Source: a bacterium (GTDB lineage Bacteria > UBA8248). From it: a stretch of 64,000 nucleotides of DNA. The stretch lies in assembly GCA_965219955.1 (NCBI GenBank), contig OZ244799.1, positions 1,952,001-2,016,000 on the forward strand, given 5' to 3'. The notes under the pieces are model-generated. The model saw only the letters and a program-made list of their open reading frames with translations, had not been told where the DNA came from and did no database searches. Position numbers and translations under genes: made by a program. Position 1 is the stretch's first letter, and every line of letters starts with the position of its first letter. Below are positions 5,800 through 9,911 of the stretch, one piece after another.

Positions 5800-6923
5800 A
5801 CGCAATCCGCCCCACAATAGGAGAGGTCATCGAGATACATGCCCCAGTTGCGGTACTCTTTCAAGTCTTCCGCCGGCAGCCCCAACGAGGTCGCAATTGC
5901 TTTGGCGACAACGGCGAATCGTTGTCGATACTTGTAGATAAAGCAGAAGACGTGATTGTCATGGCGAACTGCGGGGCCGCAGAGAAATACTCCCGGTACG
6001 ATGGTTGATTCATCGTGTTCGCTCAGAAGCGGAAAGCCATCGTCGCGTCGCTCAAACAAATCCGCGATGAACTTGTGACTCCCCTCAAATCCGCCCGCCC
6101 ATAGTGGCGGCACGCGGGTTTCAAACCGATGCCCGTCTCGAGCCGTAACTTCATACATGGCGTTTACGCGAGTGACCGATTCGATAGGTGTGTGCGGAAA
6201 CAGCTCCACTTGCTCGACAAACCAGTCTTCACGCATCCGTTCGAGCGTAAACGGGGAAAGCGCGACACTGGGATCGGAACTCTCTTCCTCCCACGGACAA
6301 TCCTTGTCGAACAACCGCACTCGTTTGTCGCGACACGCCAGATGGTAGGCCACGTCGACACCACTTTCGTAGCCGCCCACAACGATGAAGTCGTCACCGT
6401 CAAGCTCTCCATAACTGGCGATGGTCGCGGTGTGACGACACAATTGGCTGCCGACAAACCCATTCAAGCGTGGGTATTGGAACTCGCCAGCGGCCCAAAT
6501 GACATGCCTGGCTTGCAAGGTCTCGTCGGCCGTATCAATACGAAAGCCGTCGCCAACCTTTGCTATCTGCATCACGTCGGTATCCTGGCGTACAGGTAAC
6601 TCAAAGAAATGTGCGACTGCACGCAAATATATCGCGTACTCTTCACCCGTCGGATGCTCAACCTCCAAACTGAAAGCGGGTGAAGTTCCAATCGCGATCG
6701 AGTTCAAATCGAGCATGCCAATCGAATTGGTTGGGTACGAGGGCGTGATGAAGCGAGTCTCGGCCGGCCATGAGGCGAACGATGCGCCGACCGTGTGACG
6801 ATCGAGAACTACGAAGTTCTCGATGCCGGCATGCCTGAGAGCCACCGCGGCGCCCACGCCTGCGGCGCCGGCGCCGACGATCGCTACGTCATAGCAGGTT
6901 TTACTGCTCTCGGCGCCGATCAT
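5793..6923 (-). CDS. FAD/NAD(P)-dependent oxidoreductase (CzcO/TrkA-like) with C-terminal Cys motif
   Basis: VAIVGAGAAG FAD motif, VVGGYESG second dinucleotide motif, C-terminus DDLSYCGADCVC. Confidence 0.85.
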   Translation of the reverse strand: MIGAESSKTCYDVAIVGAGAAGVGAAVALRHAGIENFVVLDRHTVGASFASWPAETRFITPSYPTNSIGMLDLNSIAIGTSPAFSLEVEHPTGEEYAIYLRAVAHFFELPVRQDTDVMQIAKVGDGFRIDTADETLQARHVIWAAGEFQYPRLNGFVGSQLCRHTATIASYGELDGDDFIVVGGYESGVDVAYHLACRDKRVRLFDKDCPWEEESSDPSVALSPFTLERMREDWFVEQVELFPHTPIESVTRVNAMYEVTARDGHRFETRVPPLWAGGFEGSHKFIADLFERRDDGFPLLSEHDESTIVPGVFLCGPAVRHDNHVFCFIYKYRQRFAVVAKAIATSLGLPAEDLKEYRNWGMYLDDLSYCGADCVC

Positions 6924-7371
6924 GCAGATACCTCCTGTCGATATTCAAACCAGACATGCCTCGAATCCCTGCCGCATGCTCTGTTCATCGAGGTCGCGGC
7001 CGATGAAGACGAGCTGATTGCGCCGGGGCGAGTCTCCCCATGGAGAATCCGGCTGGCTGTCTATGAGCATGTGAACCCCCTGGAAGACGAAGCGACGCGA
7101 CTCACCCGCGAGGCTGATGGAGCCCTTCATTCGGAAGATGTCCACCCCGCGCTCACGGAGCAGTTCGCCAATCCAGGCGTCGAGCTTTTCGGGATCGACG
7201 TCACCGTCCCTCTCGATCGCGATCGAGCCCACCTCGTCGTCGTGTTCGTGCTGTGCGACCCAGGTGCGCTCGGCCTCTGGCCTGATTGCCGCTCCTTCCG
7301 CGTTCCTCAGTTGGAGATCGAACTCATCCGCGCCGTGCTCGGCGTAGAGGGCAACCCGCACCTGCGTGTCG

Positions 7372-7643
7372 TATATGGACGCCCACGAGAATGCAAGCGG
7401 TTTTTGGGGAGGGTTCGGCGCAAAGCGGTTCGGCTCAGTCGTATATCCGGCCTCTTCGTTGCGGCGCTTTACTCTGGCCGCGGGCCCGTATGGAGATAGG
7501 TGGACCGGGTCCAAATCGACCTGGTGAGCTCGGTGGCTCTGGACATATATCTGGTTTTCCCGGTCCCGTCTCGATGACCGTTTGCCCTTACCCTTCCTCC
7601 GGCCTGCTCACATTCCTCCCGGCTCTATCCGTGCGCCCGCCGC
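7372..7643 (-). ncRNA. Putative bridge/seekRNA region of the IS1111-group element
   Basis: 8-bp stem GGACCGGG/CCCGGTCC (7566-7559 / 7509-7502) encloses AGGTCGA, matching the target. A second stem (GCGGC/GCCGC within GGCC...GGCC) is followed by ATATACGA, matching the donor junction. Exact RNA ends unknown. Confidence 0.7.
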
Positions 7644-8669
7644 TCAGGCGAGGGGCGCCGGCTCCCTGTAGACATCCTTGTTCCGCATCAGCGCCCACGC
7701 GATGCGCGCCATCCGGTTCGCCAGCGCCACCGCCACCACCTTCCTCGGCTTGCGCGCCAGCATCCGCGCCAGCCACGGACACGGCGGCTTCCGGCGACGC
7801 CCCGCCCAGCGTATCTCCGACATCGCGCCCGATATCAACAGACGCCTCACGTCGCGCTGGCCCATCTTCGACATGCCCCCCAGACGGGGCTTGCCCCCCG
7901 TGGAGTGCTGCCGGGGAACCAGACCCAGCCAGGCCGAGAAGTCACGGCCCCGACGGAAGTTCTCCACCGGCGGCGCGAACGCCCGGATCGCCGACGCCGT
8001 AATCGGACCAACACCCGGGATGCTCATCAGACGCCGCGCCTCCTCGTCCGCGTATGCGCTCGCCCGGAGCCGTCCGGTCAACTCCCGGACCTTCGCATCG
8101 AGGCCGCCAATCTGGGCGAGCAGAATCCCGCCCAACTCGCGGACCTCCTCGGGCAGGCCCGATTCCGCTCCCCGAACCGCCGCCGCCAGCCGTGTGAGGC
8201 CCACGGGCCCTTGCCGCTCGACGACCCCGAACTCCGCCAGGTGGCTGCGCAGCGCGTTGCGCGCCTGCGTGCGCTGACCCACCAGCAAATCCCGCGTGCG
8301 GTACTCCATCCCACACCCCTGCTGCGCTTCGCTCTTCACCGCCACGAAGCGCATCGTCGCCCGGGTGGCCGCCTCGCAAATGGCCTCCGCATCCGCCGCG
8401 TCGTTCTTGTGGCGCTTCACGTAGGGCTTCACGTAGACCGGCGGCATGAGCCGAACCTCATGGCCGAGCTTGCCGACCTCGCGCCCCCAGTAGTGCGCGC
8501 TCGCGCACGCCTCCATCGCCACCACGCATCGAGGCTGCGACGACAGAAACTCCAGCACCTTCGCCCGCGTCAGCTTCTTGCGGAACGCGACCCGCCCGTC
8601 CGCCCACGCGCCGTGGAGTTGAAAACTGTGTTTCGCCAAGTCGACCCCGATGATGTAGACTCCTCCCAT
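7644..8669 (-). CDS. IS110-family transposase/recombinase (DEDD RuvC-like + Tnp20)
   Basis: IIGVDLAK, VAMEACA, KNDAADAEAI, SIPGVGP and GLVPRQHSTGGK; AAGGAG RBS before ATG 8669. Confidence 0.96.
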   Translation of the reverse strand: MGGVYIIGVDLAKHSFQLHGAWADGRVAFRKKLTRAKVLEFLSSQPRCVVAMEACASAHYWGREVGKLGHEVRLMPPVYVKPYVKRHKNDAADAEAICEAATRATMRFVAVKSEAQQGCGMEYRTRDLLVGQRTQARNALRSHLAEFGVVERQGPVGLTRLAAAVRGAESGLPEEVRELGGILLAQIGGLDAKVRELTGRLRASAYADEEARRLMSIPGVGPITASAIRAFAPPVENFRRGRDFSAWLGLVPRQHSTGGKPRLGGMSKMGQRDVRRLLISGAMSEIRWAGRRRKPPCPWLARMLARKPRKVVAVALANRMARIAWALMRNKDVYREPAPLA

Positions 8670-9911
8670 GGTCGTCTCCTTCCGGGCGGTGTGTGACGTC
8701 GTCTCGCCACATTCTAATCCGCCGGAAGGAGGCGTCCACCCCATCGACCTCCAGGAAGAACGATTTGCGCCCCGGGGAATCGAGTAAGAGGTTCACATGC
8801 TTTCCGAGGGGAATCTCTTCCCCCGGGCGAATGAGCTCCGCAGGTTCGGCGTACTGCCGCACACACCACTCCGCACCCTCACGGAGGGCAGCGTCATCCG
8901 TCCCCTGGTCGGACACGACGACGAGCGACATCGCCGGATCAGGTCCATCGGCGAGGCCGAGTTCGTAGCGGCCGATATCGAGCGAATAGACTCCGGTCCA
9001 TTCGAACGGATACTCCGGCTCGAGGAAGGTGGGACGACGCTCGAGCACCTGGTCCAGGTCGAAGGCGCCGAGGTTGAGGACCGTGTCGACCGAGACGTTC
9101 GCCCGCTCGCTGCGCACGACGCGCGCCATTCGGTTCATGTCCCGGAGCCGGGCTTCGAGACTGTCGAGCGCCTCGCCGTTGACGAGGTCCGTCTTGTTGA
9201 GCACCAGGACGTCCGCGAACGCGATTTGCTCGGTGCTTTCGTCGCTTCGGCCGAGTTGTTGCTCGATGTGGGCTGCATCGACGAGCGTGACGATCCCGTC
9301 AAGCGCGAACTCCGCGCGAATCTCGTCGTCCATGAAGAAGGTCTGAGCGACCGGGCCGGGATCGGCGAGCCCTGTGGTCTCCACCAACACATAGTCGAAC
9401 TTGTCGCGGCGCTTCATGAGATTGCCGAGCACGCGAATCAGGTCTCCGCGCACCGTGCAACAGATGCAGCCGTTCGCCATCTCGAAGATCTCTTCGTCAG
9501 CGTTGATGACGAGCGCCTGATCGATGCCGACCTCCCCGTACTCGTTCTCGATCACGGCGATGCGCTTGCCGTGCTCTTCACTCAATATCCGGTTGAGCAG
9601 GGTCGTTTTGCCAGAGCCGAGGAAACCGGTGAGGATGGAAACAGGTACTTTTCGCGGCGTGTTCATTTAGTTCTCCTGGAGCAGAGGTATGGGTATTGGA
9701 ATTTGGACGTCGAACGTCCGCGTGATGGCCCAATGGGCTCTCATGCAACGTCGCGCGAAGCTCTGGATAGATTTGAATCCGGCTCGACTCTCTCGCGGCT
9801 CACGCGGAGAGCCGGGCGCCCTGCAGGACGCGCGCATGTGAGATGCGGATGACCGAGAGGCGCCACGAGATGCCGGTGACCCTTTCGCCAAAACGGACGA
9901 GACAGTTGCGG

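What the first reader, a model, noticed from the sequence alone, without database searches (positions are those of the whole stretch)
7372..7643. Bridge/seekRNA guides readable directly from the IS non-coding end
Seen (minus strand): GGACCGGG-AAAACCAG-ATATATGTCC-[GAGC hairpin]-CC-AGGTCGA-TTTGGA-CCCGGTCC forms an 8-bp-closed internal loop. AGGTCGA (7522-7516) equals the left half plus core of the actual target GG-AGGTCGA-CACG. TGTC on the opposite side partly matches the target bottom strand (CGTGTCG). A second arm carries ATATACGA (7446-7439), identical to the donor junction CC-ATATA|CGA, and CTCCATACG loosely matches the donor bottom strand CCCCATCG. Known: IS110/IS1111 recombinases use such RNAs to specify target and donor. 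Inference: a complete RNA-guided recombinase with core CGA, recombinase, guide, donor and target all in one window.
Basis: partly seen in the sequence, partly recalled or inferred. Interest (0 to 1): 0.75.

Follow-up and report, generated by a model that had tools for sequence, protein, structure and literature searches.

The report
Bridge RNA of an IS1111-type element
The non-coding tail of a small jumping gene that has split a cobW gene encodes a guide RNA that reads both its landing site and its own ends, a kind of system described in 2024, and sister copies in the same genome carry retuned guides.

Summary
Window 8744..7370 (minus strand) is a 1375-bp IS110-family element of the IS1111 type inserted in a cobW/COG0523 gene. 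The intact gene, with the predicted empty site, is present in 3 related genomes.

It carries four guide segments:
- RTG, 7550-7541.
- LTG, 7522-7517.
- RDG, about 7495-7487.
- LDG, 7446-7440.

Relatives with 56-81% transposase identity support the reading:
- The stems covary: 95.5% of cells paired against at most 45.6% when slid; 14 of 30 pairs show compensatory change.
- The LDG equals the 7 nt after the right subterminal repeat in 68 of 71 loci.
- LTG and RTG track each element's own flanks.

The genome holds 8 near-identical copies. Their usual targets are two REP palindrome families. The few differences among the youngest copies lie in the guides and match the REP variant occupied.

- The core is CG, not CGA.
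- The window copy's own RTG fits its cobW site poorly (4 bp), while a sibling allele fits it with 8 bp. This points to guiding in trans or later conversion.

Verdict: a real, well-supported new member of a known kind, of moderate interest.

The parts
7370..8744 (-). IS110-family element of IS1111 type, 1375 bp counted with one copy of the CG core
   Evidence: 8 full-length copies at 98-100% identity in the genome. Junctions. Empty site in relatives. Environmental contigs join 7370 to 8747 (X18, X20, one other letter between) or 7366 to 8742 (X7), skipping 1375-1376 bases.
8745..8750 (-). Left target half AGGT plus core CG at the left junction
8731..8738 (-). Left subterminal inverted repeat TGGACGCC; it overlaps a promoter-like site (-35 TGGACG, 16 nt, -10 TAGAAT, 8738-8711)
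   Evidence: Read. The reverse complement lies at 7383-7376. Promoter scan.
7644..8669 (-). Transposase gene, 341 aa
   Evidence: Pfam DEDD_Tnp_IS110 and Transposase_20. NCBIfam NF033542 'IS110 family RNA-guided transposase', 302 bits against a cut-off of 140. Translation.
7420..7593 (-). Conserved structured part of the 3' non-coding end: the bridge/seekRNA body. The true RNA ends are unknown.
   Evidence: Alignment A1 of 49 sequences. Pair counts.
7559..7567 (-). P1 5' strand, closing stem of the target-binding loop; pairs with 7509-7502
   Evidence: 8 pairs, 5 with compensatory changes, 95.6% of cells paired.
7551..7554 (-). P2 5' strand CCAG; pairs with TTGG 7514-7511, directly flanking the guide loop
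   Evidence: C-G swaps to G-C in 8 sequences at one pair.
7541..7550 (-). Right target guide (RTG) ATATATGTCC, complementary to the target top strand
   Evidence: 10 contiguous pairs with the REP-B target from core G rightward. Siblings carry GCG at 7548-7546 and sit in GGACACGCAG sites. Relatives.
7526..7539 (-). P3 hairpin inside the target loop (GAGC, 6-nt loop, GCTC)
   Evidence: the second pair shows changes on both sides in 22 of 49 sequences.
7517..7522 (-). Left target guide (LTG) AGGTCG, same sense as the target top strand (pairs with the bottom strand). It is followed by A7516 and T7515, which equal the first two IS bases.
   Evidence: L006 has T>G at 7519 and C>G at 7523 and a ..TTGGGCG left flank.
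7487..7495 (-). Right donor guide (RDG) CTCCAT(A)CG, complementary to the IS left end ATGGGG with one G-U. The CG can pair with the core only if A7489 bulges.
   Evidence: at least 5 of 6 positions paired in 63 of 64 loci. The ends hardly vary, so the control is weak. One compensatory case (3 loci).
7449..7486 (-). P4/P5 hairpin between RDG and LDG (GGCC/GGCC and GCGGC/GCCGC)
   Evidence: 99.5% and 99.6% of cells paired. 3 of 5 P5 pairs show a compensatory change. P4 is nearly invariant.
7440..7446 (-). Left donor guide (LDG) ATATACG, identical to the IS right end plus core. A7439 also equals the first base of the left end.
   Evidence: identical 7-mer in 68 of 71 loci across 11 different 7-mers..
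7426..7429 (-). P0 3' strand ACCG; pairs with CGGT 7580-7577. This long-range stem encloses both loops. It is weak in this copy and 5-6 bp in relatives.
   Evidence: helix 1: 89.8% of cells paired, 2 of 5 pairs with compensatory change.
7391..7396 (-). TTGCAT, a -35-like box in a nearly invariant CTTGC block. After 17 nt comes TA+CG, which joins AT of the left end only in the circle (junction promoter; inferred).
   Evidence: Invariant columns. Spacing read. Junction promoters of this family: PMC11187229 passages.
7376..7383 (-). Right subterminal inverted repeat GGCGTCCA
   Evidence: conserved in relatives.
7360..7369 (-). Right target half ACACGCAGGT in cobW
   Evidence: 8 contiguous pairs with the sibling GCG allele, 4 with this copy's own allele.
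6945..9666 (-). cobW/COG0523 GTPase gene split by the insertion (N part 9666-8745, C part 7371-6945)
   Evidence: Pfam cobW and CobW_C. Intact 448-aa frames in G002, G011 and G012.

Best explanation
The 3' non-coding end of this IS1111-type element encodes a bridge RNA (seekRNA). The RNA is probably read through from the transposase transcript.

Target-binding loop:
- It is closed by P1 and P2.
- Its 3' side (LTG, 7522-7517) pairs with the bottom strand to the left of and across the core.

Donor guides:
- A second pair of single-stranded segments flanks the P4/P5 hairpin.
- The RDG pairs with the IS left end and the LDG with the IS right end, as the two ends abut in the excised circle (..CCATATA-CG-ATGGGG..).

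Reaction and targets:
- The DEDD/Ser-type recombinase bound to this RNA exchanges strands at the shared CG. The element enters without duplication beyond the core.
- The natural targets are REP palindromes: AGGT-CG-GACATATAT, and for retuned alleles GGG(T/C)-CG-GACACGCA.
- The cobW insertion in the window is an off-consensus event at a site that fits the sibling GCG allele.

Shown here: anatomy, stems, guide-flank and guide-end correspondence, the empty site.
Inferred: that the RNA is made, bound and used; strand polarity and cleavage positions (by analogy with IS621); trans use of a sibling's RNA.
For: Protein and layout:
- IS110-family RNA-guided transposase.
- Short 5' end, 272-nt 3' end, 8-bp subterminal repeats.

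Structure:
- 30 pairs in 6 helices, 95.5% of cells paired against 26-46% for slid partners.
- 14 pairs show changes on both sides.
- 0 of 500 shuffles reach the observed values.

Guides:
- LDG: equals the 7 nt after the right repeat in 68 of 71 loci.
- LTG: at least 6 of 8 identical to the element's own flank in 37 of 43 unique pairs, against 95 of 1756 cross pairs.
- RTG: complementary run of 6 or more with the element's own flank in 38 of 54 unique pairs, against 121 of 2780 cross pairs.

Within this genome:
- L001, L002 and L003 are identical.
- L004 and L005 differ from them only by three adjacent substitutions inside the RTG.
- L006 adds two substitutions beside or in the LTG and one G-C to G-U change in P1.
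- 6 of 8 copies sit at the REP variant that their own RTG allele fits best.

The cobW site:
- The G000 scan covers the present, IS-interrupted genome, which no longer holds the intact cobW site. Its scores (6 of 6 left match, right-half run of 8) come from the relatives' empty sites.
- Of the 3488 AGGTCG sites in G000, none has a right-half run of 8 or more with the GCG allele; the maximum is 7.
- So the intact cobW site would have ranked first.

Order of matches:
- The top-strand match lies 5' of the bottom-strand match, the order reported for IS1111 seekRNAs (PMC11187229, section 9 read in full).

RNA:
- RNA-library contigs of 3 runs from 2 studies cover 7370-7730.
Against: - No direct evidence that this RNA exists with defined ends. 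The RNA-library rows are assembled contigs, some reach into the flank, and DNA carry-over cannot be excluded.
- No sigma-70-like promoter or intrinsic terminator was found inside 7300-7700.
- No Rfam family matches: one chance hit at E 0.5 outside the element.
- RDG support is weak. The left end barely varies, and 54 of 90 cross comparisons also reach 5 of 6.
- The base that should read the first core base does not covary.
- The window copy's own RTG pairs with only 4 contiguous bases of its site.
- In this lineage the RTG and LTG footprints share only the G of the core; A7540 faces the C.
- Three right junctions are irregular: L005 and L008 lack the C, and L102 lacks GA.
Confidence: 0.9

Rival explanations
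1. Target-only seekRNA. The RNA reads the target, while the IS ends are recognised by the protein through the subterminal repeats. On this view the internal ATATACG is a DNA-level second end (like the A'/B' boxes of ISPpu9), not an RNA guide.
For: - An internal copy of an end would also stay identical to the true end. So the 68 of 71 identity does not by itself prove RNA-DNA pairing.
- L007 carries a second copy of the last 77 nt that starts exactly at the internal ATATACGA. The DNA site is therefore used as an end.
- ISPpu9 forms several circles from repeated end boxes (PMC12288879, abstract and passages).
- Siddiquee et al. leave end recognition in IS1111 open (PMC11187229, section 6).
Against: - The segment lies single-stranded beside a conserved hairpin. 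It mirrors the LTG position in the target loop, on the same strand sense and with the core at the same place.
- A partner segment complementary to the other end sits across the hairpin.
- Durrant et al. report donor-complementary loops in IS1111 elements (PMC11208160 passages).
- Use of the guide-coding DNA as a pseudo-end is what a guide identical to the end predicts.
Confidence: 0.07
2. The cobW insertion was made with this copy's own RNA in a relaxed event that relied on the left guide alone, not with a sibling's RNA.
For: - The left half plus core matches 6 of 6, or 7 of 7 with the following A.
- Half-match recombination accounts for many IS621 off-target insertions (bioRxiv 10.64898/2026.08.31.748434, abstract only).
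Against: - With the window copy's own allele, 73 of the 3488 AGGTCG sites in G000 pair over 4 or more right-half bases, as many as the cobW site does.
- With the GCG allele, the cobW site's run of 8, measured on the relatives' empty site, exceeds every one of those 3488 sites (maximum 7).
- The 10 bases ACACGCAGGT are shared with the REP-A sites of L004 and L006.
Confidence: 0.1
3. The mismatch between copy and site (L001, L005, and L119 in G011) arose after insertion, by gene conversion of the guide segment between copies, not by trans use of RNA.
For: Both RTG alleles occur on two different backbones. GCG is on the L004 type and on the diverged L007. ATA is on the L001 type and on the diverged L008. 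L007 and L008 share two further substitutions. So exchange between copies has happened.
Against: - The non-coding end works in trans in plasmid assays of ISEc11 (PMC11187229 passages).
- ISPpu9's relative ISPpu10 is called trans-acting in a section heading (outline only).
- Trans use therefore needs no extra event.
- The two readings cannot be told apart from sequence.
Confidence: 0.3
4. The matches are chance or reflect a 3' UTR or regulatory structure unrelated to recombination.
For: AGGTCGA alone is frequent in this GC-rich window: 23 copies.
Against: all go against it. The variable positions of the non-coding end are the ones that track each element's flanks and ends.
Confidence: 0.02

Closest known systems
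IS1111-group seekRNA / bridge RNA elements (ISEc11, ISPa11, ISKpn4, ISPst6; Siddiquee et al. 2024, PMC11187229; Durrant et al. 2024, PMC11208160, Fig. 6 text)
   Same: - Long non-coding region downstream of tnp.
- Subterminal inverted repeats.
- Transposase of 341 aa with a GL-P----(S/T)G motif.
- The top-strand match lies 5' of the bottom-strand match in the RNA.
- A site-specific target, here REP palindromes.
- A likely junction promoter in the circle.
   Different: - Sequence: no Rfam hit. I made no direct sequence comparison with those named elements.
- Here the two target guides overlap on only one base of the CG core.
- The donor guides appear to sit in the multiloop closed by a long-range stem (P0) plus P1, not in a separate stem-loop. 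I could not see the published figures, so this may not be a real difference.
IS621 bridge RNA (IS110 group; Durrant 2024; Hiraizumi 2024, PMC11208158)
   Same: - Two pairs of guides, each reading opposite strands on either side of a shared core.
- A DEDD RuvC-like domain plus a Tnp domain.
- PDB sequence matches to IS621 (8wt6, E 4e-9) and ISCro4 (9t56, E 9e-10) over the C-terminal domain.
   Different: - The RNA is 3' of the gene, not 5'.
- The order of guides within each loop is reversed.
- The core is CG, not CT.
- Long subterminal repeats are present.
- I could not identify handshake guides in the IS621 positions.
REP-targeting IS110-family elements ISPpu9 / ISPpu10 (PMC12288879; bioRxiv 10.64898/2026.03.19.712850, abstract)
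   Same: - Insertions in REP palindromes.
- Several copies per genome.
- Extra partial modules: non-coding-end fragments L010 and L012, and the tail duplication in L007.
- The target forms a stem-loop.
   Different: - Those elements belong to the IS110 group, with the RNA upstream.
- Whether the REP hairpin is itself read here was not tested.

Membership tests
IS110 family (DEDD transposases) | N-terminal DEDD RuvC-like domain and C-terminal Transposase_20 domain | tested here: met
   PF01548 E 2e-13 and PF02371 E 1e-22. NF033542, 302 bits against a cut-off of 140.
IS1111 group | Subterminal inverted repeats of 7-17 bp (PMC11208160 passage) | tested here: met
   TGGACGCC 8738-8731 and GGCGTCCA 7383-7376: 8 bp, set in from the ends by 6 and 5 nt.
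IS1111 group | Longer non-coding region downstream of tnp | tested here: met
   About 75 nt upstream and 272 nt downstream.
IS1111 group | Transposase of 330-350 aa with GL-P----S(t)G (PMC11187229, section 6) | tested here: met
   341 aa; GLVPRQHSTG read in the translation.
IS1111 group | Transposase clusters with IS1111-group proteins in a tree | not tested
   No ISfinder reference proteins were available as tool output. No tree was built.
Bridge RNA / seekRNA | Structured RNA with an internal loop whose two sides match opposite strands of the target around the insertion point | tested here: met
Bridge RNA / seekRNA | Second pair of guides matching the two IS ends as joined in the circle | tested here: inconclusive
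   LDG clearly met. RDG is consistent but hardly testable because the left end is nearly constant. The circle itself was not observed.
Bridge RNA / seekRNA | The RNA is expressed, bound by the transposase and required for movement | not testable with these tools
   Only RNA-library contigs covering 7370-7730 in 3 runs of 2 studies. These show presence in the libraries and nothing about ends, binding or need.
Any Rfam family | Covariance-model match | tested here: not met
   Nothing on the element at E up to 1.

The most novel reading that the evidence does not exclude
One genome holds an allelic series of a single bridge RNA caught in the act of retargeting, and the RNAs are shared among copies.

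The series:
- Copies that are otherwise identical over 1375 bp differ by a block of three adjacent substitutions in the right target guide. This switches the fit from the REP-B variant GGACATATAT to the REP-A variant GGACACGCA.
- One copy has then also changed its left guide (AGGTCG to AGGGCG) to fit the REP-A left arm.

Sharing of RNAs:
- Two of eight copies sit at sites specified by a sibling's allele. One of them is the window copy that destroyed a cobW gene.

Further possibilities:
- The block substitution could be templated by the REP DNA itself.
- The one-base overlap of the two target guides could explain the irregular right junctions.
Probability: 0.4. Interest if true: 0.55.

Novelty: new member of a known kind. 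Interest (0 to 1): 0.4.

Why it matters
RNA-guided IS110/IS1111 recombinases are under active development as genome-writing tools. How their guides change in nature, and how faithful they are, is still known mostly from plasmid assays.

This locus offers a natural experiment:
- Eight copies carrying three guide alleles.
- Two REP target families with occupied and empty sites.
- One gene-disrupting off-consensus insertion whose site can be assigned to one allele.

It gives ready-made, naturally validated guide-target pairs for an IS1111-type enzyme. It also gives a testable case of trans guiding and of stepwise retargeting. As a system it is not new.

Tried and rejected
- Rfam scan of 6800-9200 at E up to 1: only a chance HIV_FS2 hit at 8765-8832, outside the element.
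- Single-sequence folding of the 272-nt end: z-score -1.5, not informative alone.
- RNAalifold's own long-range pairs (columns 10-12 with 242-244, 185-199 with 226-239) involve the IS terminus. I did not adopt them. I proposed P0 instead, and it holds in 89.8% of cells.
- My first LDG script picked the wrong AGGCC in many loci and gave a meaningless result. It was redone with alignment-defined LDG columns and an independently located right repeat.
- Handshake guides at the IS621 positions (passages): I found no convincing equivalents.
- Left ends of the two closest foreign copies (G011) were sought to test a prediction about junction heteroduplexes. They are not in that assembly: 0 matches in G011, which is 93% complete.
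- Models to derive the L005/L008 junction (missing C) from a single exchange with shifted cuts: none reproduced both junctions.
- RNA libraries: most bins of the transposase body (7760-8470) have no contig in X19 and X20, and only one low-depth contig in X18. Lack of cover in contigs proves nothing, and I draw no conclusion on relative RNA levels.

Full report
**What is at the coordinates**

On the minus strand the window holds a 1375-bp insertion sequence, 8744..7370, counted with one copy of the core.
- It encodes a 341-aa protein (8669..7644). Pfam finds DEDD_Tnp_IS110 and Transposase_20. NCBIfam NF033542, 'IS110 family RNA-guided transposase', scores 302 bits against a cut-off of 140.
- The closest solved structures by sequence are the ISCro4 and IS621 transposases, E about 1e-9 over the C-terminal domain.
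- The 5' non-coding end is about 75 nt and the 3' end is 272 nt (7643..7372).
- An 8-bp inverted repeat lies a few bases inside each end: TGGACGCC 8738-8731 and GGCGTCCA 7383-7376.
- The protein carries GLVPRQHSTG.

These are the features that Siddiquee et al. (PMC11187229, section 6 read) and Durrant et al. (PMC11208160, passages) give for the IS1111 group.

The element splits a cobW/COG0523 GTPase gene. Three of the 20 relatives searched hold the intact 448-aa gene. At the insertion point it reads ..GGAGGT-CG-ACACGCAGG.. Environmental contigs also join across the element, skipping 1375-1376 bases.

**The observation**

The stem GGACCGGG/CCCGGTCC closes a loop that holds ATATATGTCC, a small hairpin, and AGGTCGA.

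By itself the AGGTCGA match is weak, because the heptamer occurs 23 times in the window. ATATACGA occurs only at the IS end and at 7446-7439.

**Copies and natural targets**

The genome (one 4.28-Mb contig) has:
- 8 full-length copies at 98-100% identity (L001-L008; L001 is the window copy);
- one relative at 78% (L009);
- fragments of the non-coding end (L010, L011, L012).

All left junctions read ..CG followed by ATGGGG. Most right junctions read CCATATA-CG followed by flank. So the shared core is CG. The third base, A, is shared only at the cobW site.

Seven of the eight copies lie in REP-like palindromes. A scan for GGACA-N5-GTCC found 115 strand hits, falling mostly into two families:
- REP-B: ..GTAGGTC-GGACATATATGTCC-GAC... 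The exact 14-mer is at 6 loci, 4 of them occupied.
- REP-A: ..GGGC-GGACAC-NNN-GGTCC-GCCCCTAC... The variant GGACACGCAGGTCC is at 13 loci, 3 of them occupied.

The consensus target is therefore AGGT-CG-GACATATAT. ATATATGTCC (7550-7541) is its perfect complement from the core G rightward, 10 bp. AGGTCG (7522-7517) equals its left half plus core. This is the strand logic of a bridge RNA (PMC11208160 passage). The order is the one reported for IS1111 seekRNAs: the top-strand match lies 5' of the bottom-strand match (PMC11187229, section 9).

**Relatives**

A protein-seeded scan returned 567 relatives. The best 80 loci (56-81% identity) were kept. Of these, 76 had at least 250 nt downstream and were aligned.

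- LTG. In a fixed register, the 8 nt ending at the core G are identical to the element's own left flank at 6.47 of 8 positions on average. At least 6 of 8 match in 37 of 43 unique pairs. Against other elements' flanks the mean is 3.24, with at least 6 of 8 in 95 of 1756. That call used the 64 loci with a recognisable left end.
- RTG. The longest run complementary to the element's own core plus right flank averages 6.33, and is 6 or more in 38 of 54 unique pairs. Cross comparisons average 3.30, with 121 of 2780 reaching 6 (69 loci).
- LDG. It was defined by alignment columns. It equals the 7 nt that follow the independently located right repeat in 68 of 71 loci. Five loci were dropped for lack of a recognisable repeat. 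The 7-mer takes 11 different forms, with core CG, TG or AG.
- RDG. The RDG (CTCCAT) pairs with the first six bases of the left end at 5 or 6 positions in 63 of 64 loci. That end is nearly constant, so 54 of 90 cross comparisons do as well. The only clean compensatory case is ATGGCG with CGCCAT, in 3 loci.
- First core base. The base after CCATA-C varies without tracking the first core base. So the donor guide on that side is the least secure part.

**Structure**

Alignment A1 has 49 sequences: the window, 5 from this genome, and 43 of 60 unique relatives. I left out 17 that were near-duplicates or carry a 230-290-nt longer tail.

I counted six helices on it:
- 95.5% of 1468 cells form standard pairs.
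- With partners slid by 1-3 columns the figure is 26-46%.
- 14 of 30 pairs have changes on both sides.
- 0 of 500 shuffles reach the observed values. Relatedness inflates the shuffle test, so the slid control is the fairer one.

P1, P2 and P3 frame the target loop. P4/P5 is a nearly invariant hairpin between RDG and LDG. P0 is a long-range stem that encloses everything. It is only about 4 bp in this copy.

The donor guides thus appear to lie in the multiloop between P1, P4 and P0. This is my inference. I could not see the published figures of IS1111 bridge RNAs.

**Allele series in one genome**

Differences among the copies:
- L001, L002 and L003 are identical over the whole element.
- L004 and L005 differ from them only at 7548-7546 (ATA to GCG), inside the RTG.
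- L006 has these changes plus C>G at 7523 and T>G at 7519 (beside and in the LTG) and C>T at 7563 (G-C to G-U in P1).
- So all 6 differences between the L001 type and L006 lie between 7563 and 7519.
- L007 and L008 are older copies with 10-25 further substitutions.

The GCG allele is complementary to 9 bases of GGACACGCA (REP-A). The L006 left guide fits its ..GGGCG flank.

Six of 8 copies sit where their own RTG allele fits best: L002, L003 and L008 with ATA; L004, L006 and L007 with GCG. Two do not, L001 and L005. A close foreign copy, L119 in G011, also combines a GCG guide with an ATATAT site.

**The cobW insertion**

The window copy's own guide pairs with only 4 contiguous bases of the right half. 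The sibling GCG allele pairs with 8.

I scanned the present genome, in which the cobW site is already interrupted.
- Of the 3488 AGGTCG sites in G000, none has a right-half run of 8 or more for the GCG allele; the maximum is 7.
- 73 of them have 4 or more for the ATA allele.
- The intact cobW site scores 6 of 6 and 8 on the relatives' empty sites. It would therefore have been the best full-left-match site for the GCG allele.

I conclude that the GCG-allele RNA chose this site.

Either it acted in trans on an ATA-allele donor, or the guide segment was later converted.
- For trans action: it is shown for ISEc11 in plasmid assays (PMC11187229 passages).
- For conversion: both alleles occur on two backbones, so exchange between copies does happen.
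- Sequence alone cannot decide. I rate trans use somewhat more likely.

**RNA**

A consensus scan found no promoter or terminator within the non-coding end. It found one promoter-like site in the left end.

By eye, TTGCAT (7396-7391) sits in an almost invariant CTTGC block. It lies 17 nt before TA-CG, which meets AT of the left end only in the circle. This fits the junction promoter known for this family, which 'would also transcribe the NCR' (PMC11187229 passage).

RNA-library contigs of three runs from two studies cover 7370-7730 at 93-98% identity. This shows presence in those libraries only.

Two of those runs (X18, X20) carry G instead of A at 7540. That would let the RTG also pair with the core C, for 11 bp.

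**Unexplained**

- In this genome the two target guides overlap on one core base only.
- L005 and L008 lack the C at the right junction, although a paralogous empty site has it.
- L102 lacks GA.
- L007 is followed by a second copy of the last 77 nt, beginning at the internal ATATACGA. That is recombination between the true end and the guide-coding DNA. It recalls modular circles of ISPpu9 and half-match recombination (abstract).

**Comparison and verdict**

The element works like, and meets the testable defining features of, an IS1111-group bridge/seekRNA element. Expression, binding and requirement of the RNA could not be tested.

It is a new member of a known kind.

My literature basis is three full-text searches and the passages named above. 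I make no claim that natural allele series or trans guiding in a wild genome are unpublished. Supplements of the two 2024 papers were not consulted. They may already list related elements.

Noticed in passing
G000:C1:4138591-4140037 (L007 plus L011; outside the window): Copy L007 ends with a tandem second copy of its last 77 nt. The repeat starts exactly at the internal ATATACGA that encodes the donor guide. The REP-A flank follows only after the second tail.
   Followed up: partly
L005 and L008 right junctions (G000:C1 about 694056 and 4205788); L102 about 1500 (G011): Irregular right junctions. The C of the CG core is missing in two copies, and GA is missing in a close foreign copy. The left junctions seen (L005, L008; L102's left end is not in its assembly) are regular.
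   Followed up: partly
G000, genome-wide: Two REP-like palindrome families serve as IS targets. One is a GGGC-GGACAC-N3-GGTCC-GCCCCTAC family with dozens of copies. The other is a long AT-rich palindrome family around GGACATATATGTCC. One perfect REP-B target (about 450385) is unoccupied.
   Followed up: partly
L033, L034, L024 (Alphaproteobacteria MAG records): A related IS type has target guides that match the right end (GGGGGCG-TCCATAGACG) of another IS type of the same family. Its left flanks are indeed the tail of such an element, so one IS homes to another IS's end. L020, L021/L107 and L066 likewise have flanks inside other elements' non-coding ends.
   Followed up: no
L027-L032, L058 (Vicinamibacterales and Acidobacteria records): In these elements the left guide and the donor guide say the core is CG, but the left junction reads TG. 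Their 3' end is 230-290 nt longer than in the others.
   Followed up: no
L012 1389-1714 (G000:C1 about 3812300-3812630): A degenerate non-coding-end fragment without a transposase gene begins 12 nt after a tRNA-Ser(cga) gene. L010 is another fragment. It keeps guides that fit its own right flank at 8 of 10 positions.
   Followed up: partly
window 8765-8832: Weak Rfam hit to HIV_FS2 (20 bits, E 0.5) inside the cobW coding sequence. Taken as chance.
   Followed up: no
window 7300-8800 in runs X1-X20: The element, or close relatives of it, is held by marine and sponge metagenome runs of several studies. Contigs there also carry the uninterrupted cobW site with a synonymous variant next to the core.
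   Followed up: no
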